From: Candidatus Bathyarchaeota archaeon
Lineage (GTDB): Archaea > Thermoproteota > Bathyarchaeia > 40CM-2-53-6
DNA: 64,000 nucleotides
NCBI GenBank assembly: GCA_963726255.1
Contig: CAVSBL010000002.1
Span: 832,001 to 896,000 of the forward strand
Direction of reading: 5' to 3'
Part shown: one piece after another, positions 37,131 through 44,741 of the stretch
Numbering within the stretch: the stretch's first letter is position 1
Layout: each line of letters opens with the position of its first letter
Position numbers and translations under genes: made by a program
Notes under the pieces: generated by a model
The model's input: only the letters and a program-made list of their open reading frames with translations
Told to the model about the DNA's origin: nothing
Database searches by the model: none

Positions 37131-37492
37131 AAGCCTCCGCTACACCGAGCAACTCTCCAACAAAAACAACTTCATATAAGGCTTCTGTTAGCCGGCCTTG
37201 GTACCTTGGCGTTTGGTCGGTTGGCTGGTTTTGGCTGTTACTTATCGTTTGGTGAGGGAATTTGGACGGGCTCCTCCACACCGCACAGGTGACGGAATGA
37301 CTGCGCGTTCACAGTACCTCTAACGTCTTCACCTGGATTGCTATACAGTTCTACTTCGATTTTCCCAAAACCGAAAGGGTGTTTTCACCTCGGCCATTCC
37401 CCATTTGCCATTCCATCCATTCCCTGCCATGTCTAGAAACACTTTTAGATGGACGTTCGAGTAGCAGCGAACGCGGCTTCGGGACGATTATC

Positions 37493-38611
37493 GTGCGCGA
37501 CTTAATCCGAATAAACCAGCCCATTATCGGCAAAGAAGAGATTGATGCCGCGACTGAAGTCTTGAAGAGCGGAATTCTGACCGAAAAGAGTGGGATGGGC
37601 CCTAGAGTCCTTGAATTCGAGAAGGACTTCGCGCGTTATGTTGGGGCCAAGCATGCTGTGGCTTTGAATACTGGAACGGCAGCGCTTCATACTGCCGTGC
37701 TGGTCGCGGGCGTTAAGTCTGGAGATGAAGTAATCATCCCGTCATTTACATTTCACGCCACGGCGGAAGTGGTCCTGATGGCGGGGGCTGAACCAGTCTT
37801 CGCGGACATAGACCCAGACACATACACAATAACAGCCGAGACCGTCGAGGCCGTAATGACGCGGAATACGAAAGTGATCATGCCGGTTCATTTGTACGGG
37901 TTGCCAGCGGATTTGGACCCCTTGAAGAAACTTGCCAGGGAACGCGGGGTTACCTTGATTGAGGATGCGGCGCAGGCACACGGAGCGGAGTACAATGGGT
38001 CGAAGATCGGGTCTATCGGTGACATGACCTGCTTCAGCATGTACGCGGGTAAGAACATGACCACCGGCGAGGGGGGCATGGTCACAACGAACGATGACGA
38101 CTACTCCGAAAGGTTACGTATGGTTAGGTCCCACGGCGAACAACGCCCCTATTGGCCAGTGACCGTTGGAAACAATTACAGGATGACTGAACTGCTTGCT
38201 GCGGTGGGAGAGGCGCAGTTGAAGAAACTCCCCTCTTTCTTGGAGCGTAGAAGAAAGAATGCTCAGTTTTTCGGCGAGAAGTTTGGGGTTCTCGGAAAAG
38301 TGGTGCCCCCGAAAGAGCCTGAGGGTAGGAAAAGTGCGTGGTATCTGTATACGTTGAGGTTGCGTGGGGCGAATGCTGGGAAACGTAACAAGGTTATCGA
38401 AAAGCTTCGGTCAAGGAACATTGAGGCGGCGGTCTACTATGAGTCCCCGTTGCATCTCCTACCGTTGTACCGCGAACGATCTACTTCACGCCGGCCTCTA
38501 CCTGAGACAGAGAAAGCTTGCAGGCAAGTCTTCTCCCTACCGGTGCACCCGAAGCTCGCAGAACCCGAGCTGGAATATATTTTCGATACAGTGAAGCGGG
38601 TTCTAACGTGA
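37493..38611 (+). CDS. DegT/DnrJ/EryC1/StrS PLP aminotransferase
   Basis: GTAALH, PVHLYG, IEDAAQAHG, SMYAGKNMTTGEGG. Start moved to GTG after the CTTTTA TATA. Confidence 0.93.
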   Translation: MRDLIRINQPIIGKEEIDAATEVLKSGILTEKSGMGPRVLEFEKDFARYVGAKHAVALNTGTAALHTAVLVAGVKSGDEVIIPSFTFHATAEVVLMAGAEPVFADIDPDTYTITAETVEAVMTRNTKVIMPVHLYGLPADLDPLKKLARERGVTLIEDAAQAHGAEYNGSKIGSIGDMTCFSMYAGKNMTTGEGGMVTTNDDDYSERLRMVRSHGEQRPYWPVTVGNNYRMTELLAAVGEAQLKKLPSFLERRRKNAQFFGEKFGVLGKVVPPKEPEGRKSAWYLYTLRLRGANAGKRNKVIEKLRSRNIEAAVYYESPLHLLPLYRERSTSRRPLPETEKACRQVFSLPVHPKLAEPELEYIFDTVKRVLT

Positions 38612-39031
38612 CTTCTGGGTTACCAGAATAGGGACCGAACGCAGGATTTCATCCAAAGTCGGCCTCGTGGTTTCCCGAATCTCGTAGCCGACGCGAAGAG
38701 CAGGCTTAGCGATGTTTTGAAAATTCTTTCCTCATCCCGTAGAACATGACATTCTTCATCCTTCTTCCATGATTGAGTTGAGCATGGTCATCGTGTTTCG
38801 AGTGACCATTTTCAGGTGACCAAGCACTTTGAGCAAATCTGGAATGAGAACGTGGGTTTTGCCTTTTTCCGCTCAAGGAGAGATCTCGTCAACTATTATG
38901 AGGATCTTGGCACCGTTAAACTACGCAGAAGCGCTAAAGGATGTAAAATGATCAGCTGCACAATTAGCTGTGACGACGATGCCTTTGCCATGCAGAGAGC
39001 GCCGAATCCAGAACGGTGGAATACTTGCCTA

Positions 39032-39059
39032 GTGTGTGCGCACCACTAGACCCACACAC
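39032..39059 (+). repeat. 28-bp 11-6-11 inverted-repeat site S1
   Basis: GTGTGTGCGCA-CCACTA-GACCCACACAC. Confidence 0.7.
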
Positions 39060-39064
39060 ACTGA

Positions 39065-39111
39065 GACGACGGTTCAAATCCAGTCGCCCGCACCACCATG
39101 CCCACACACAC
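39065..39111 (+). repeat. 47-bp direct repeat copy A: tRNA 3'-end mimic + right arm
   Basis: GACGACGGTTCAAATCCAGTCGCCCGCACCACCATGCCCACACACAC, identical to 39681-39727. Confidence 0.9.
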
Positions 39112-39130
39112 ATTTTTACGAACGATGGGC

Positions 39131-39161
39131 GACGACGGTTCAAATTCCGCAGGGCACACCA
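39131..39161 (+). repeat. Degenerate third tRNA 3'-end mimic
   Basis: GACGACGG-TTCAAAT-TCCGC-AGGGCAC-A-CCA; same T-loop-to-CCA spacing. Confidence 0.7.
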
Positions 39162-39198
39162 GAAACGCTTAAGTAACGAAAATGCACGACGCTTCGGC

Positions 39199-39618
39199 AT
39201 GAAAGCAATAGCCCTTTTCTTCCCCTTGGCTGCCTTCGTCGTCTTCGCTCAGGGCCTGACGGGAGCGTATACGGTCCTAGCCTTCTACGACTTCGGAGCC
39301 CACATGACCACTGGCTACGTGACAGGCATCTTCGCTCTGGTAGCTGTGATTCTGGCCTTTGCCGCGAAACCGAAGTACAACGCGCTGCGATACTCGTCAG
39401 TGGTCTTCTTCGCGCTCGTTGTCATACAGGGCCTCATAGGGTTTTCCGCTGAGACAAGCGACGAGATCGTGGGCATCCACTTCATCAACTTTCTAGTACT
39501 CTTCGGCATTTCCATCGCCATGGTGTTCTACGCCTTCCGATGGAACAGGATGGGAAGTGCCACCCAGCGGCAAAGCGACAGAGCGGCCGCCAGGCGGCGT
39601 AAGACGCGTACACGGTAG
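39199..39618 (+). CDS. Small 4-TM membrane protein with two intramembrane His
   Basis: ATG about 25 nt after the GAAACG-CTTAAGTA promoter; FGAHM and GIHF. Confidence 0.7.
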   Translation: MKAIALFFPLAAFVVFAQGLTGAYTVLAFYDFGAHMTTGYVTGIFALVAVILAFAAKPKYNALRYSSVVFFALVVIQGLIGFSAETSDEIVGIHFINFLVLFGISIAMVFYAFRWNRMGSATQRQSDRAAARRRKTRTR

Positions 39619-39680
39619 TAATAGAGAGACCGATATGACTAGTGTAGGTGTGCACACGCACACTTCTACTAACGAAGAAC

Positions 39681-39727
39681 GACGACGGTTCAAATCCAGT
39701 CGCCCGCACCACCATGCCCACACACAC
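39681..39727 (+). repeat. 47-bp direct repeat copy B
   Basis: Identical to 39065-39111. Confidence 0.9.
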
Positions 39728-39784
39728 GAAAACGACCACAAACGACGTTTCACCATAAAGCGACCGCCGGGAGTCTGACCCGTT

Positions 39785-40237
39785 TCATGCAGTATGAGGT
39801 TTCTGCCGAAGCTGCCGAAGTATGCTCCCCATGTCGAATTCTGCCCATTCCTCAACAATCCTTCCTTCCTCGATACGGGATATATCGATGAACGCAAACT
39901 TCGTTCGTGCTCCTGTGGACGGGATGCTCTGATACTCGCCTGTGTGATCTGCGTACATTTTCACACGACTTGCTACTCTGTCTCCTTCTGCTATCTGATC
40001 CTCAACGGTCGTGCGTATGTTCGAGAAAGCATAGAAGAAGAACATCTCATCATGCTTGCGACCAGTCGAGTCCATTGGCTCACCCCCACCTGGAGGATAA
40101 TATGCGTGCTTTGGGGCTAGGAACGACCAGACTGTATTCGCATCTCCCGAATCGTACGCTTTGAAATACGCTCGGATCAGGGTTTTGTTCTGTTCTCTTC
40201 GATCTCCTTCATCTTTCTGCAACTGTCTTGTCTTCAA
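39785..40237 (-). CDS. SnoaL-like ester cyclase (NTF2 fold)
   Basis: EQNKTLIR, VEDQIAEGDRV, HTGEYQSIPSTG, GRIVEEWAEFD. Confidence 0.9.
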   Translation of the reverse strand: MKTRQLQKDEGDRREQNKTLIRAYFKAYDSGDANTVWSFLAPKHAYYPPGGGEPMDSTGRKHDEMFFFYAFSNIRTTVEDQIAEGDRVASRVKMYADHTGEYQSIPSTGARTKFAFIDISRIEEGRIVEEWAEFDMGSILRQLRQKPHTA

Positions 40238-40310
40238 ATACCTAATCCAACATGAGACCCGTCAAGTTAACAGCTTCAATGCCTGAATTCGATGCCCACA
40301 TACAAGCATT

Positions 40311-40338
40311 TAGTGTGGGTCCAATGGTGCGCGCACAC
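40311..40338 (-). repeat. 28-bp 11-6-11 site S3 (inverted orientation)
   Basis: Minus strand GTGTGCGCGCA-CCATTG-GACCCACACTA. Confidence 0.65.
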
Positions 40339-40480
40339 ACTTCAGAACGGTCCAGAGTGCAACAGGAAAGATTGTATTCGCGCGCTTAGATCAATCCGAC
40401 GAGGCTTTGATTTGGCCAGACATGAATGGCAGAGGAAACGAAAAAGAATAGTAAGCCAGATGGGGCCGTCCGAAATCAAG

Positions 40481-40660
40481 ATGGATCTAAATGAAGCCGC
40501 AAGACGTGCGGAGGCGTTCGCCAAGAGCGAGTCGGATCAGGCAGCGGTCACGGACAAATATGAAGATGCGGACTATTACGTTATCAAAGGCGTTTCCCCA
40601 AGCGGCGAATGGACAGTTATGTTCGATAAGAGAAACGGGAGAAGAGCATTCCCTCCATAA
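40481..40660 (+). CDS. 59-aa hypothetical protein, PepSY-like pattern
   Basis: MDLNEAARRAEAF...YYVI...WTVMFDKRNG. Start uncertain (40460 also possible). Confidence 0.5.
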   Translation: MDLNEAARRAEAFAKSESDQAAVTDKYEDADYYVIKGVSPSGEWTVMFDKRNGRRAFPP

Positions 40661-40722
40661 ATGCGCGATTTTCGTGCATGTCGCACCGACCGGTCGTCCG
40701 CCGTCGTTTTCGTTTGTTTTGT

Positions 40723-40750
40723 GTGTGTGCGCACCACCATGCCACACATA
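40723..40750 (+). repeat. 28-bp 11-6-11 site S4
   Basis: GTGTGTGCGCA-CCACCA-TGCCACACATA. Confidence 0.7.
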
Positions 40751-40971
40751 GAAAGACTGGTCCGCCTAAGTCTAAGTGAGCCTCTCGGCCGTCATGCCTC
40801 CTGACCTTGTAGTCAGTCGTCGGGGACCATCTGCACGGTCGCTGAGCACGATGCAATGCGTAATGCACCCGATGTTGGGTGCAATGCACCCCCTCAAGAT
40901 AGTGCGGACAGGAGCGCGTGTCAGCATTGCCGGCGAATATCGCTCTCTCTCAGAGCATTTCGCCTTGCATG

Positions 40972-42369
40972 CTAGTTGAAGCGTTTGCTCAAGAGCTCTT
41001 CTAGGTTCGGCGACCCCAACTCCTCGAGCTCATATCTAGCGCGAACCGCTGGTTTGTTCAAGTTCATCACTTTCCGCAGGTCAATTGGAGTTCCCACAAC
41101 TACAGCGTCACATGGTGTGGCGTTGATTGTTTCTTGGAGCTCTTTGATCTGGTGTTCACCGTAGCCCAACGCAGGTAGCACATTTGCCAAGTGCGTGAAC
41201 TTCTCGTATGCTTTTTGGATTGAGCCTACGGCAAATGGTCTCGGGTCCACAATTTCACTTGCGCCAAAGGTCTGAGCTGCTATGGTACCCGCTCCATACG
41301 GCATGCCTCCGTGAGTGACCGTTGGGCCGTCTTCGATCACGAGAACGCGTTTACCTTTCACGATTTCAGGGTTATCAAGTGTCACGACCGAAGCCCCCAT
41401 GATTATGGTTGCCTTTGGATTGACTTCTTGGATGTTTTTCCGCACGGTCTCGACATTTTTCGGGTCAGCCGTGTTAACCTTGTTTATGACGACAACATCA
41501 GCCATCCTAATGTTGGCTTCTCCAGGGTGATAGGTAAGCTCATGGTTCGGTCGATAGGGGTCAGCTACGACTATTTGTAGATCTGGTTTGTAGAAGGGTA
41601 GGTCATTGTTGCCGCCGTCCCAAATGATTACGTCTGCTTCCTTCTCGGCTTCGTGTAGAATACGTTCATAATCAACTCCAGCGTAGATCACCATACCTCT
41701 AGCTACGTATGCCTCGTATTCTTCGCGTTCTTCGATTGTACATTGGTACTTGTCAAGGTCTTGGAACGTGCCAAAACGCTCACAAATCTGCTTGGACAAG
41801 TCACCATAAGGCATCGGATGCCTTACAGCGACAACACGGTAGCCTCGATCCTGCAAGATCTTGCAGACTTTGCGGGATGTTTGACTCTTACCACAACCCG
41901 TCCGCACAGCGCAAATCGAAACCACAGGCTTCTTTGACTTGAGCATAGTGTTGGACGCACCCATTAAGCGGAAATCAGGTCCGGCAGCGATGACCGCTGA
42001 ACCCTTGTGCATCACATATTCGTGCGATACATCGCTGTACGCAAAAACTACCTCTCCGACTCCATGTTTTCGAATAATGTCCAGTAATTGGTCTTCAGGG
42101 CGTATTGGAATTCCCTTTGGATATAGTGAGCCTGCCAGTACACGGGGATAAGTACGACTCTCTATTCCTGGAATCTGAGTCGCCGTGAATGCCACAACTT
42201 CATACGCCTTATTGTGGCGGTAGAACACGTTGAAATTATGAAAATCTCTACCCGCGGCACCCATTATGACAACTTTTACAGGAGAATTCTTCGGTGAATT
42301 TCTAATTCTTCTGGATGACTGACGAGTCTTCCGCGCACGATTTGGCTTCTTCATAGACATTCTCAGCAT
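40972..42369 (-). CDS. Cyclic 2,3-diphosphoglycerate synthetase-like P-loop protein (arginine synthetase ArcE-like family)
   Basis: GAAGRDFHNFN, AVRTGCGKSQTSR, RHPMPYG, WDGGNND, EDGPT.THGGM. Confidence 0.8.
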   Translation of the reverse strand: MLRMSMKKPNRARKTRQSSRRIRNSPKNSPVKVVIMGAAGRDFHNFNVFYRHNKAYEVVAFTATQIPGIESRTYPRVLAGSLYPKGIPIRPEDQLLDIIRKHGVGEVVFAYSDVSHEYVMHKGSAVIAAGPDFRLMGASNTMLKSKKPVVSICAVRTGCGKSQTSRKVCKILQDRGYRVVAVRHPMPYGDLSKQICERFGTFQDLDKYQCTIEEREEYEAYVARGMVIYAGVDYERILHEAEKEADVIIWDGGNNDLPFYKPDLQIVVADPYRPNHELTYHPGEANIRMADVVVINKVNTADPKNVETVRKNIQEVNPKATIIMGASVVTLDNPEIVKGKRVLVIEDGPTVTHGGMPYGAGTIAAQTFGASEIVDPRPFAVGSIQKAYEKFTHLANVLPALGYGEHQIKELQETINATPCDAVVVGTPIDLRKVMNLNKPAVRARYELEELGSPNLEELLSKRFN

Positions 42370-42558
42370 TCAGCGAACGGTTCCACTCAATTCGTGTTAC
42401 CTGTTGGGCGGCTAGAAACCGGTATTAGTTATCCTTTTTGTCGGAAAACTACACTTTTGGACGTATTTTGGCTGAAATGGAAGGGCACGCCCAACTTTAA
42501 AGAACAGAAGGCGAAAAGGGATTTTCCACAGATCAATGGTTTTACTGAGGAAAAATTC

Positions 42559-44250: not shown

Positions 44251-44741
44251 CTAACACACCGTTTCAGCTAGACACAGGGTTAGGAATAATTAAGCTTGCG
44301 AAGGGCCAATTTCAAACGATCGTCCTCTACGATGAGGACAAAATGTCCGAGGACAAGAAGGTCACTGAATCAATCTACCAACTAATCAGCGGCCCAAGGC
44401 TCTAAGCGAACCAAGTAGCTCAAATCCCCAGACCAACAGAACACTCCTCCGGACTTTGCGACACGCGGCCCCGTTACAAAGGCAAGTACCAACTTACCGG
44501 CGAAACGGTGTCATTTCAACCGCCGAAAAGGCATCATCTCGCCCGCGAATAGGCTACATTTCACGTCTGCATCCCCCCTGGTCTGGAGGCGGAGGTTGCT
44601 GCCTCTATCCCCGGGCTTAGTCCATGGTTTATCCTGGGAATACTCGTGGTAATCGGTGCGGAGAAATGCTGCGTCAACGGAGACGAAGGATCAAGCAAGC
44701 GGTGAACGAATTGATTCCAAGAGCTATTGGATGCGAGCCAA

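What the first reader, a model, noticed from the sequence alone, without database searches (positions are those of the whole stretch)
39032..40750. Candidate gene-cassette array delimited by five 28-bp 11-6-11 recombination-like sites
Seen: five related sites of consensus GTGTGTGCGCA-CCAyyr-(TG/GA)CCCACACAC at 39032, 39082, 39698, 40311 (inverted) and 40723. Degenerate pieces lie at 39641-39664 (near-palindrome) and 40292-40310. They separate three unrelated small genes (4-TM protein, SnoaL cyclase, PepSY-like) between two conserved genes, and I did not see the motif elsewhere in the window. Known: 11-bp inverted arms around a 6-bp asymmetric spacer is Xer/dif tyrosine-recombinase geometry, and bacterial pdif modules and integrons shuffle cargo genes with such sites. 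Inference: an archaeal cassette capture/shuffling platform run in trans, since no recombinase is present here.
Basis: partly seen in the sequence, partly recalled or inferred. Interest (0 to 1): 0.8.

Follow-up and report, generated by a model that had tools for sequence, protein, structure and literature searches.

The report
Recombination sites bounding small archaeal gene cassettes
The five short sites are real copies of a repeat that mimics the end of a tRNA gene and marks where small gene modules are inserted, lost and swapped between closely related archaeal strains, most likely by an integrase supplied by viruses.

Summary
The five sites are real (4 pattern matches in the window against 0.57 expected), but they are not one uniform 11-6-11 palindrome. 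They share a core, CGCACCA, which is also the 3' end of several real tRNA genes, followed by N4-5 and ACCCACACAC. To the left lies either a GTGTGTG arm (sites 1, 4, 5) or a tRNA T-loop/acceptor mimic at fixed spacing (sites 2, 3). About 80 copies lie in roughly a dozen intergenic clusters of this probable Bathyarchaeia genome, and 21 of 22 sister genomes carry the motif. A 97%-identical relative lacks window 38662-40869 entirely. Contigs from other samples carry the outer 'pad' with one site and no cassettes, a precise site-1-to-site-5 difference of 1688-1689 bp. Four filled/empty comparisons elsewhere all diverge immediately after CGCACCA, as attB/attL/attR sites would. This genome has no recombinase of the five families searched. 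A tyrosine-integrase family found in 10 of 22 sister genomes sits beside tRNA ends reading ...CGCACCA, and one provirus carries a member 270 nt from a site. My best reading is a tandem build-up of integrase-less mini-elements served in trans. That is a new variant of tRNA-att accretion, not an integron or a Xer/dif system.

The parts
38662..40869 (.). Strain-variable segment of 2208 bp holding all five sites and the three small genes
   Evidence: Absent from G021 (97-98% identical flanks), with a clean junction AAAGTCG|ATGTTGG and 2 nt of microhomology. A contig of run X2 joins 38659 to 40870.
38662..39031 (.). Left 'pad': sequence that stays next to the single site in the cassette-free alleles
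   Evidence: The X4 contig covers 38263-39061 and then continues at 40750. The X20 contig covers 38797-39031 and then continues at 40721. No other copy in the genome.
39032..39061 (+). Site 1, palindromic form: GTGTGTG arm - core CGCACCA - CTAG - ACCCACACACAC
   Evidence: 44.1 bits. Left limit of the 1688/1689-bp cassette block.
39065..39111 (+). Site 2, tRNA-like form: T-loop box TTCAAAT (39073-39079), 9 nt, core CGCACCA (39089-39095), CCAT, GCCCACACACAC
   Evidence: Exact 47-nt repeat with 39681-39727. 49 of 49 such copies have the 16-nt T-loop-to-core spacing of real tRNAs.
39131..39177 (+). Partial copy: T-loop box plus a CACACCA box, without the CACACAC arm (looks like an unoccupied target)
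   Evidence: 62% identical to the 47-mer. The same 'T-loop-core only' class occurs 11 times in the genome.
39199..39618 (+). Cassette gene 1: 139-aa membrane protein
   Evidence: ORF. Only sub-threshold Pfam matches. Unique in the genome.
39641..39664 (.). Degenerate near-palindrome (remnant of a GTGTG/CACAC arm pair) just upstream of site 3
   Evidence: Inverted pair I5, 16-nt arms, 88% complementary.
39681..39727 (+). Site 3, tRNA-like form, identical to site 2. Together they flank a 616-bp unit holding gene 1
   Evidence: 36.1 bits.
39785..40237 (-). Cassette gene 2: SnoaL-like protein, 150 aa
   Evidence: PF07366, E 2.6e-26. Matches at E<=1e-10 in 4 of 22 sister genomes, none with a site nearby.
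40311..40338 (-). Site 4, palindromic form on the reverse strand
   Evidence: 33.1 bits. Inverted pair with site 1, 88% (I1).
40460..40660 (+). Cassette gene 3: small protein of unknown family. The longest ORF starts at 40292 and overlaps site 4, so the real start is probably an inner ATG such as 40460
   Evidence: ORF. 0 Pfam families.
40723..40750 (+). Site 5, palindromic form with a shortened, degenerate right arm. Right limit of the cassette block
   Evidence: Its first 15 nt are identical to site 1 (D4). Joints 39061->40750 and 39031->40721.
40751..40869 (.). Right 'pad', ending in an imperfect 21-nt tandem copy of the flank (40849-40869 against 40870-40890)
   Evidence: (D3).
37379..38611 (+). 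Conserved left neighbour: DegT-family aminotransferase
   Evidence: PF01041, E 9e-124. Syntenic in G021.
40972..42369 (-).
   Evidence: Found in 18 of 22 sister genomes. None of the 26 loci around it that I held in other genomes has a site.

Best explanation
The sites are attachment (att) sites of a site-specific recombination system whose exchange point is the box CGCACCA. That box matches the last acceptor-stem bases, discriminator and CCA of several real tRNA genes of this organism. Sites are mosaics of interchangeable arms around this core. On the left is either a tRNA T-loop/acceptor mimic ('T arm') or GTGTGTG ('L arm'). On the right is either N4-ACCCACACAC ('R arm') or ordinary flanking DNA.

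Recombination between any two sites swaps the arms. That explains why all four combinations exist. It also explains why small DNA modules, mostly one gene (median site-to-site spacing 689 nt), pile up in tandem at such sites, move between islands and drop out precisely.

The window holds one such pile. A 'pad' carrying one L-core-R site was loaded with three integrase-less mini-elements: a membrane protein, a SnoaL protein and an unknown small protein.

The enzyme is not encoded here. The best candidate is a family of roughly 360-440-aa tyrosine integrases carried by proviruses and integrative elements of the genus, which insert exactly behind ...CGCACCA.

Shown: the sites, their classes, their genus-wide spread, the presence/absence alleles and the divergence point. 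Inferred: that a dedicated integrase, and this family in particular, catalyses the exchange, and that cassettes pass through a circular form.
For: (1) Non-random and conserved. There are 80 weight-matrix hits of at least 14 bits on the main contig, against 1 and 0 in two reversed controls. Of these, 72 of 80 are intergenic in a genome that is 82% coding by my crude gene calls. The motif occurs in 21 of 22 other genomes of the genus, up to 52 copies each, with 0-1 control matches, and in one genome of another family.

(2) Three allelic states of the window locus. G000 is full. G021 and an X2 contig lack 38662-40869. Contigs of X4 and X20 join 39061->40750 and 39031->40721, which leaves the pad plus one site and no cassettes.

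(3) Filled/empty comparisons that diverge directly after CGCACCA. At G000 1561376-1562116 the empty G021 site reads T-loop...CGCGCCA|CCGTAGCC. The G000 junctions read T-loop...CGCTCCA|CCCTAGTGACCCGCAC and GTGTGCATGTCCGCGCCA|CCGTAGCC. G000 2286275 against a 4.4-kb array in G021 C34, and G000 1557264 against G021 C89, behave the same way. The real tRNA-Ser at G000 1670787 is followed in G021 C158 by a 403-aa integrase gene.

(4) All arm combinations exist. Among the 290 exact CGCACCA words there are 19 L-core-R, 17 T-core-R, 14 L-core-only and 11 T-core-only. The reversed genome gives 0, 0, 1 and 0.

(5) Homology blocks between G000 and G021 end at sites. 13 of 113 block ends lie inside a G021 site, against 0.82 expected and a maximum of 5 in 2000 permutations. 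One KaiC-like cassette sits at G000 1774570-1775446 but in G021 lies at the place that in G000 is a single site at 438868.

(6) Integrase link. Two provirus-like viral contigs carry a T-core-R site about 880 bp from a contig end. In one of them a 363-aa PF00589 integrase lies 270 nt from the site, and a KaiC-like island-type gene lies beyond it. Homologues occur in 10 of 22 sister genomes. In 9 of 17 of their loci that I scanned (of 20 returned), the flank holds a ...CGCACCA word in T-loop/acceptor-like context, seven of them clear tRNA 3' ends. 9 of those 10 genomes have at least 24 motif hits, against 4 of the 13 genomes without the family, G000 included.
Against: G000 is 98.5% complete and has no PF00589, PF16795, PF00239, PF01548 or PF01797 match. 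tblastn with 15 ORFs from integrase loci of the genus (14 distinct, one an antisense ORF) gave nothing convincing. G015 (100% complete, 42 motif hits) lacks the candidate family.

The integrase-bearing elements at real tRNAs (G021 C158, G014, G002 and others) have no GTGTGTG/CACACAC arms behind the CCA. The link between this family and the L/R arms therefore rests on one provirus junction. The second provirus has no recognisable integrase within 8 kb. None of the 12 best integrase loci of the genus holds a strong site.

82 of 113 block ends lie more than 50 nt from any site. The 2208-bp segment itself ends 370 and 119 bp outside the sites, with only 2 nt of microhomology. Other processes therefore also shape these islands.

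The site-1-to-site-5 deletion could arise by ordinary recombination or slippage across 15 identical bases. No circular cassette form was seen. The exact cleavage positions cannot be read from the sequences.
Confidence: 0.68

Rival explanations
1. The motif is a selfish or neutral dispersed repeat of the REP/MITE kind. It has no dedicated recombinase, and the cassette-like variation comes from ordinary or short-homology recombination between its many copies.
For: There is no recombinase in G000. Site 1 and site 5 share 15 identical bases. Many island breakpoints are not at sites (82 of 113 lie more than 50 nt away). Copies are clustered and intergenic, as REP elements are.
Against: No Y1/RAYT transposase is present. 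In four filled/empty comparisons the partners share as little as the 7-9-nt core yet always diverge at the same point, right after CCA. Insertion of foreign modules at a single site needs more than deletion between repeats. The core equals the target of an integrase family present in the genus. No empty/filled polymorphism of the bare repeat itself was seen.
Confidence: 0.14
2. The system is: an integron-like or Xer/pdif-like platform in which 11-bp inverted arms flank a 6-bp spacer, where a Xer- or IntI-type enzyme cuts.
For: Sites 1, 4 and 5 do have inverted GTGTGTG/CACACAC arms around a central CCA+N3. The variable 4-5 nt after CCA fall into a few types (CTAG, TTAG, GCTG, GCAT, CCAG), as compatibility groups would. 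The T arm (TGCCCGCA) and the L arm (GTGTGCGCA) are similar enough to bind one protein.
Against: Two of the five sites, and 17 T-core-R sites against 19 L-core-R sites genome-wide, lack the left inverted arm. There is no XerA/IntI-type gene in G000. No attC-type R''/R' boxes were seen by eye, and no attC model was on hand. Single-strand folds are weak, with z-scores from -1.8 to +0.4. Arrays are not next to a recombinase gene in the genomes I checked.
Confidence: 0.1
3. The motif works in gene expression, as an operator for a transcription factor, a terminator or processing signal, or a tRNA-like RNA element. It merely travels with accessory genes.
For: All copies are intergenic. The tRNA-like form tends to be co-directional with its neighbours: a gene end lies upstream in 13 of 18 and a gene start downstream in 14 of 18. 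The tRNA geometry is kept exactly in 49 of 49 copies.
Against: The palindromic form shows no orientation bias (8/7). Distances to gene starts range from 0 to more than 1 kb. The tRNA promoters here are TTTAWA-like, and GGTTCAAAT does not resemble them. T-stem pairing is not kept. There is no Rfam or ARAGORN hit in the window. Folds are not better than shuffles. An expression role does not explain why homology between strains breaks at the core.
Confidence: 0.08

Closest known systems
Tandem accretion at tRNA-gene att sites, leaving integrase-less CIMEs (cis-mobilizable elements) beside ICEs/IMEs in bacteria (review PMC5704250, passages read)
   Same: Elements flanked by att sites that include the end of a target gene. 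Decayed or integrase-less units keep their att sites. [quoted passage not shown] The integrase acts in trans.
   Different: Here the units are tiny (median spacing 689 nt, mostly one gene). There are about 80 sites in roughly a dozen islands, most not next to a full tRNA gene. The sites carry extra conserved GTGTGTG/ACCCACACAC arms, and the tRNA-like arm is a mimic with its own consensus (TGCYCGCACCA) rather than a fragment of one tRNA. The host is an archaeon.
Tycheposons and their islands in Prochlorococcus (bioRxiv 10.1101/2020.12.28.424599, passages read)
   Same: Genomic islands seeded at tRNA genes. Partial tRNAs are scattered through the islands as traces of repeated integration. New arrivals push older elements inward. 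Cargo and defence genes are carried. Elements are rare per genome, and population heterogeneity shows excised and tandem forms.
   Different: Tycheposons carry their own tyrosine recombinase and are kilobases long. Their att repeats are true partial tRNAs of seven tRNA or tmRNA genes. Here most units lack any mobility gene and use one shared core with dedicated arms.
Integron gene cassettes and CALINs, including archaeal ones (PMC9668308, passages read)
   Same: Arrays of mostly single-gene, promoter-poor cassettes, each with a recombination site. Arrays without an adjacent integrase are common and can be served in trans. The site form with a left T arm tends to share the orientation of its gene.
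   Different: Integrons are defined by IntI (PF00589 plus the IntI-specific domain), an attI site and folded attC sites with R''/L''/L'/R' boxes. None of these was found here. The core here is a tRNA 3' end. That paper's main text does not mention Bathyarchaeia (0 occurrences). Its data files, which list the archaeal CALINs, could not be opened.
Xer/dif sites and pdif modules
   Same: 28-bp sites with two arms around a short centre. Modules are flanked by such sites, often in inverted orientation. The recombinase is encoded elsewhere.
   Different: No Xer-type gene exists in this genome. Nearly half of the sites have no inverted left arm. The sequences are unrelated to the archaeal dif sites I recall.
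ssrA-specific genomic islands of Dehalococcoides (PMC3146451, search listing and start of abstract only)
   Same: Islands integrated at the end of a small stable-RNA gene (its tmRNA gene ssrA) and mobilised site-specifically.
   Different: A single chromosomal target gene, and large islands with their own integrase. I did not read the details.

Membership tests
Integron (IntI + attI + attC cassettes) | An integron integrase: a tyrosine recombinase with the IntI-specific domain | tested here: not met
   0 PF00589 matches in G000, which is 98.5% complete. tblastn with ORFs from integrase loci of the genus gave nothing convincing. The IntI-specific profile was not available.
Integron (IntI + attI + attC cassettes) | attC sites: imperfect palindromes with R''(RYYYAAC)...R'(GTTRRRY) boxes that fold as a single strand | tested here: inconclusive
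   No attC covariance model was on hand. By eye the boxes are absent. Single-strand folds of five sites have z-scores from -1.8 to +0.4.
Integron (IntI + attI + attC cassettes) | Array of mostly single-gene cassettes, variable between strains | tested here: met
   Three small unrelated genes separated by sites. They are absent in G021 and in contigs of X2, X4 and X20. Median site spacing is 689 nt.
Xer/dif and pdif modules | A XerC/D/A-type recombinase encoded by the host | tested here: not met
   0 PF00589 matches in G000.
Xer/dif and pdif modules | 28-bp site with 11-bp inverted arms around a 6-bp centre, in every copy | tested here: not met
   Sites 1, 4 and 5 fit. Sites 2 and 3 have AGTCGCCCGCA as their left 11 nt. 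Genome-wide there are 19 L-core-R sites against 17 T-core-R sites.
att sites of tRNA-gene-targeting tyrosine integrases, with tandem accretion of integrase-less units | The core shared by all sites is identical to part of a tRNA gene | tested here: met
   CGCACCA ends real tRNA genes at G000 198075, 1459540, 1670787, 2186003, 2254127 and 2285765. 49 of 49 T-arm copies keep the tRNA spacing.
att sites of tRNA-gene-targeting tyrosine integrases, with tandem accretion of integrase-less units | Filled and empty alleles whose junctions are arm-swapped versions of the same core (attB, attL, attR) | tested here: met
   Four comparisons between G000 and G021, all diverging directly after CGCACCA. The window's own site-1/site-5 alleles add to this.
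att sites of tRNA-gene-targeting tyrosine integrases, with tandem accretion of integrase-less units | An integrase gene next to an att site in autonomous members | tested here: inconclusive
   Met for one provirus (integrase 270 nt from a T-core-R site). Also met for the same family at real tRNA ends in 9 of 17 loci scanned. But those tRNA-bound elements lack the L/R arms. G000 has no integrase, and the 12 best integrase loci of the genus hold no strong site.
att sites of tRNA-gene-targeting tyrosine integrases, with tandem accretion of integrase-less units | Excised circular form, and recombination that depends on the integrase | not testable with these tools
   Only assembled contigs of public runs could be laid. 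They show deletion alleles but cannot show circles.
REP/RAYT or IS200/IS605-derived palindromic repeats | A Y1 (HUH) transposase in the genome, and stable hairpin repeats | tested here: not met
   0 PF01797 matches. The two TnpB-like genes lie far from any cluster. Folds are weak.

The most novel reading that the evidence does not exclude
This Bathyarchaeia genus runs an integron-like gene-capture system built from different parts. Single-gene cassettes, each tagged with a mimic of a tRNA 3' end, are captured at dedicated GTGTGTG-CGCACCA-N4-ACCCACACAC landing pads scattered over a dozen islands. They are shuffled among islands and strains by integrases that viruses bring in. This would be a convergent archaeal counterpart of integrons. 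Its cargo is rich in TBP paralogues and in KaiC- and STAND-type (defence-like) proteins.
Probability: 0.35. Interest if true: 0.8.

Novelty: new variant of a known kind. Interest (0 to 1): 0.62.

Why it matters
Bathyarchaeia are abundant and uncultured, and little is known about how their genomes gain and lose genes. This locus gives a concrete sequence signature: a 7-nt tRNA-end core with two kinds of arm on each side. That signature marks the flexible parts of the genomes of a whole genus and can be searched for directly. It also gives a specific candidate enzyme family and defined DNA substrates for a recombination assay.

If the cassettes are moved one by one in trans, this would be a second, independently built cassette-capture system beside integrons. 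It would also explain how accessory genes, here TBP paralogues, pseudo-KaiC sensors and STAND NTPases, are exchanged between islands and strains. If ordinary recombination between repeats does the work, the finding is still a useful marker of island boundaries, but it is not a new mechanism.

Tried and rejected
Promoter reading. GGTTCAAAT does not resemble the TTTAWA-type boxes upstream of 17 tRNA genes, and the distances from sites to gene starts vary widely.

RNA or structure reading. There is no tRNA or Rfam family in the window. The T-stem pairing of the tRNA-like arm is not kept. Single-strand DNA folds are no better than shuffles.

Search for a recombinase inside the islands. Clustering ORFs from G000 island neighbourhoods, 20 G021 loci and 2 G011 loci gave KaiC-like proteins (10 members), KaiC/NB-ARC/TPR proteins (6), TBP (5), hydrolases and others, but no recombinase. 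The small KaiC-like proteins appear to lack a Walker A motif (by eye), so I dropped them as recombination enzymes.

Small contigs. C1, C3 and C5 of G000 are near-identical duplicates of chromosomal stretches and C4 is not clearly so. None is a plasmid candidate and none carries a site.

The G021 integrase on C158 sits in a classical tRNA-Ser-integrated element with no motif hits. The G011 integrase closest to the viral one (50% identity) has no T-core junction beside it, and the nearest sites lie 12 kb away. I could not decide whether they bound one element.

Cross-species travel of the SnoaL cassette. Homologues occur in 4 of 22 sister genomes, and none of the 5 loci I scanned (of 6 returned) has a site, so this gave no support.

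A shared 374-nt distance between a site and an insertion end at two loci looked like a common element end. The sequences are unrelated, so it is a coincidence.

The second provirus (G042) has no Pfam-recognisable integrase in its first 8 kb.

Three of the five viral-contig matches are chance hits: different G+C content and no T-loop or GTGTGTG arm.

Depth of the laid contigs and stretches without cover were not used as evidence.

Supplementary files of papers were not opened, so the data files of PMC9668308 that list archaeal CALINs could bear on whether such arrays were counted there.

Claims about print: I found no description of this motif. This rests on two full-text searches, which searched for integrons in Archaea and for Bathyarchaeia mobile elements, not for the sequence itself.


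Full report
WHAT IS THERE. The five sites are at the stated coordinates. They share CGCACCA, 4-5 variable bases and (A/G)CCCACAC. Sites 1, 4 (reverse strand) and 5 have GTGTGTG on the left, which is the inverted partner of the right arm. Sites 2 and 3 do not. They end an exact 47-nt direct repeat (39065-39111 = 39681-39727) whose left part is GACGACGG-TTCAAAT-9 nt. A third, partial copy (39131-39177) has the TTCAAAT box and a CACACCA box but no CACACAC arm. The core pattern occurs 4 times in the window, all in this stretch, against 0.57 expected, and 0 of 100 shuffles reach 4. Of the cargo, SnoaL is confirmed, the membrane protein has only sub-threshold matches, and the 'PepSY-like' call finds no support.

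A GENOME-WIDE, GENUS-WIDE REPEAT. The window is G000:C2:832001-896000. The genome has 2.42 Mb in 5 contigs. It is probably a Bathyarchaeia: the closest named relatives of the flanking 465-aa protein are Bathyarchaeia MAGs at 68-71% identity, and the tRNA genes are rich in introns and encode CCA. A weight matrix built from 44 strict matches finds 80 hits of at least 14 bits on the main contig. Reversed controls give 1 and 0. The hits form roughly a dozen clusters. 72 of 80 are intergenic, 7 lie in the first 150 nt of over-long ORF calls and 1 lies inside a 351-nt ORF. Adjacent hits are a median of 689 nt apart (n = 45 gaps under 5 kb). The strict pattern, with up to 1 mismatch, occurs in 21 of 22 other genomes of the genus at 2 to 52 copies, with reversed-pattern controls of 0-1. 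It also occurs 20 times in one genome of another family (G034). In the other 17 genomes searched it gives 0 or 1 match each: 15 have none, G024 and G032 have one each, and one control pattern also hit once.

TWO LEFT ARMS, AND tRNA GEOMETRY. Copies have either GTGTGTG ('L arm') or a GGTTCAAAT box ('T arm') on the left. In 49 of 49 T-arm copies from G000, G021 and G011, the T of TTCAAAT lies exactly 16 nt before the C of CGCACCA. That equals a 7-nt T-loop, a 5-nt T-stem, a 7-nt acceptor strand, discriminator A and CCA. Two of the 49 are real tRNA genes. Real tRNA genes of G000 end in ...CGCACCA at six places. The T-stem is not kept as a pairing stem, and the folds are weak. What is conserved is therefore two sequence boxes at a fixed distance. 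That suits protein recognition better than an RNA fold.

THE WINDOW LOCUS VARIES BETWEEN STRAINS. G021 shares 97-98% nucleotide identity on both sides but lacks 38662-40869. Its junction is clean, AAAGTCG|ATGTTGG. A contig of run X2, from another sample of the study that may be the source, shows the same joint, 38659->40870. A 1675-nt contig of X4 (another study, 90-95% similar) runs 38263-39061 and continues at 40750. A contig of X20 runs to 39031 and continues at 40721. These relatives therefore hold the outer 'pad' (38662-39031 and 40751-40869) with exactly one site and no cassettes. The full and cassette-free forms differ by a precise site-1-to-site-5 block of 1688-1689 bp. None of 26 loci around the 465-aa gene that I held in other genomes of the genus has a site. 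The pad is thus a recent arrival, and its own ends are not at sites.

SITES MARK MODULE BOUNDARIES ELSEWHERE. I compared 21 G021 stretches (247 kb) with G000. The clusters are mosaics of shuffled blocks. Of 113 internal block ends, 15 lie inside a site of either genome, 20 within 10 nt and 31 within 50 nt. Counting G021 sites only, 13 lie inside a site, against 0.82 expected and a maximum of 5 in 2000 permutations. The other 82 lie more than 50 nt away, so other rearrangements are also common. These stretches were chosen because they matched clusters. The test therefore speaks to the precision of the coincidence, not to genome-wide rates. One KaiC-like cassette lies at G000 1774570-1775446 between two sites. 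In G021 the same cassette sits, flanked by sites, at the place that in G000 is the single site 438868.

WHERE THE EXCHANGE HAPPENS. Four filled/empty comparisons can be read base by base.
(1) G000 has 740 bp at 1561376-1562116 that G021 lacks. The empty site reads T-loop...CGCGCCA|CCGTAGCC. The G000 junctions read T-loop...CGCTCCA|CCCTAGTGACCCGCAC and GTGTGCATGTCCGCGCCA|CCGTAGCC. The inserted DNA thus brought an L-core-R site and recombined with a T-core-flank site.
(2) G000 2286275 (reverse strand) is an unoccupied T-loop...TGCCCGCACCA|AGAGTCG site. G021 holds a 4.4-kb array there, bounded by T-loop...CGCACCA|GTAGACCCACACAC on one side and a second T-type arm...CGCACCA|AGAGTCG on the other.
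(3) G000 1557264 reads GTGTG...CGCACCA|GCACACAAAC. G021 has the same left side followed by |TTAGACCCCCACATAC and 5 kb more.
(4) The real tRNA-Ser at G000 1670787 reads ...CCCCCGCACCA|TTCTACTGG. In G021 it reads ...CGCACCA|AACTTAAC, followed by a 403-aa tyrosine integrase gene.
In all four the sequences part directly after CGCACCA. In agreement, all arm combinations exist among the 290 exact CGCACCA words of G000: 19 L-core-R, 17 T-core-R, 14 L-core-only and 11 T-core-only. The reversed genome gives 0, 0, 1 and 0. This is the pattern expected of attP-, attL-, attR- and attB-like sites that swap arms at a common core. Because all L arms and all R arms look alike, the cleavage points cannot be placed more exactly.

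THE ENZYME. G000 has no match to Phage_integrase, the archaeal phage integrase family, Resolvase, IS110 DEDD or Y1 transposases. It has two TnpB-like genes far from any cluster. tblastn with 15 ORFs from integrase loci of the genus gave nothing convincing. Tyrosine recombinases occur in 19 of 22 sister genomes, but their number does not track the motif: G009 has 3 and no motif. None of the 12 best loci holds a strong site.

A scan of viral contigs for the exact core-R pattern gave 5 places. Two of them are true T-core-R sites. Both lie about 880 bp from an end of a provirus-like contig, with the T arm towards the virus. In one (G041, 51.7 kb) a 363-aa PF00589 integrase with a C-terminal zinc ribbon lies 270 nt from the site. 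Beyond the site lies a KaiC-like gene that is 74-77% identical in DNA to G021 island genes. So an integrase-bearing virus appears to have inserted at a motif site of a related host. The other contig has no recognisable integrase within 8 kb.

Homologues of this integrase occur in 10 of 22 sister genomes and not in G000. The G004 copy is broken by 9 stops. In 9 of 17 of their loci that I scanned (of 20 returned), the flank holds a ...CGCACCA word in T-loop/acceptor-like context, seven of them clear tRNA 3' ends of two tRNA types. The family therefore targets this core. 9 of the 10 genomes with the family have at least 24 motif hits, against 4 of the 13 without it. The genomes are related, so this is only a hint. 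Against the link, the tRNA-bound elements have no L or R arms, and G000 and G015 hold 34 and 42 sites without the family.

READING. The most economical account is tandem accretion of integrase-less mini-elements at a tRNA-3'-end-like core, served in trans. This is the logic described for CIMEs beside ICEs and IMEs (PMC5704250, passages) and for the partial-tRNA-strewn islands of Prochlorococcus (10.1101/2020.12.28.424599, passages). The differences are single-gene units, a dedicated pair of GT/CA-rich arms, a tRNA mimic with its own consensus, and about a dozen islands that mostly lack a full tRNA gene. The system works much like an integron array without an integrase (a CALIN; PMC9668308, passages). 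It fails the membership tests for integrons and for Xer/dif.

Island cargo seen in passing includes three TBP paralogues, six small KaiC-like proteins, and KaiC/NB-ARC/TPR proteins.

LIMITS. The G021 data are 22 fetched stretches, not the whole genome. The public-run evidence comes from assembled contigs, which show alleles but neither circles nor frequencies. My gene calls are crude ORF calls. The organism's name rests on the titles of its nearest named relatives. The statements about tRNA sublocations preferred by integrases and about archaeal dif sites are recalled, not read here.

Noticed in passing
window 44320-44699: About 378 bp are present here but missing at the matching place in G021. 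A 243-bp part (94% identical) sits in G021 on another contig (C158 4805-5039), just before a tRNA-Ser that carries an integrated element. This is a second small mobile or duplicated piece, with no motif.
   Followed up: partly
window 42373-42382: G021 has about 313 extra bases (L100 3866-4180) between the 465-aa gene and its neighbour that G000 lacks.
   Followed up: no
G000:C2:121096-121665, 438918-439514, 1773698-1774375 (L114:2699-3376): Three paralogues of TATA-binding protein (PF00352, E 5.4e-57 for the one tested) lie inside the motif clusters, next to sites. Extra TBP genes as cassette cargo are unusual.
   Followed up: partly
G000:C2:923636-924151, 1249289-1250113, 1774623-1775375, 1839934-1840707, 1890475-1891257, plus L124:2827-5592, L124:6127-9072 and L132:3875-5974: The commonest island cargo is a family of roughly 250-aa KaiC-like proteins that seem to lack a Walker A motif. 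Larger proteins join a KaiC-like domain to NB-ARC and TPR domains (STAND type), which looks like a defence or signalling repertoire.
   Followed up: partly
L129:3962-6109 (G021 C38) against G000:C2:555285-555293: A 2149-bp insertion in G021, holding three motif sites, is flanked by a 9-bp direct duplication, AACGTTAAT, of a site that is single in G000. This points to a different, transposition-like way in which site-bearing DNA reaches new places.
   Followed up: partly
G000:C2:2286330-2286370 and 2287380-2287430; L152 about 1960 and about 10060; L151 about 6230 and 15080: A second repeat family, TTATATGTACCGGTAAAT next to a small GGGG...CCCC hairpin or a tRNA-like end, accompanies the motif clusters in G000 and G011. 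It also follows the CCA of a tRNA-like gene end (T-arm, acceptor strand and CCA recognisable; not called a tRNA by ARAGORN) that has a 319-aa integrase beside it in G011.
   Followed up: no
G000:C2 near 1249150, 1250380 and 1891500: Fragments reading TGGCGCCGGGGGTGGGATTTGAACC (the reverse complement of another tRNA 3' end) flank several KaiC-like cassettes. At least one further tRNA-end repeat therefore populates these islands.
   Followed up: no
G000 contigs C1, C3, C5 (and part of C4): The small contigs are 98-99.8% identical copies of stretches of the main contig (for example C1 and C5 = C2:2128307-2140107). These strain variants were assembled twice, which fits the 9% contamination estimate.
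   Followed up: yes
G013:C16:1240-12959: Six tyrosine-recombinase matches lie in a row within 12 kb at a contig start, with no motif site among them.
   Followed up: no
whole genome G000: ARAGORN without the intron option finds only 7 tRNAs. With it, it finds 35, several with implausibly long 'introns' (566-2802 nt) that probably join unrelated halves. No tRNA lies in the 64 kb window by the default search.
   Followed up: partly
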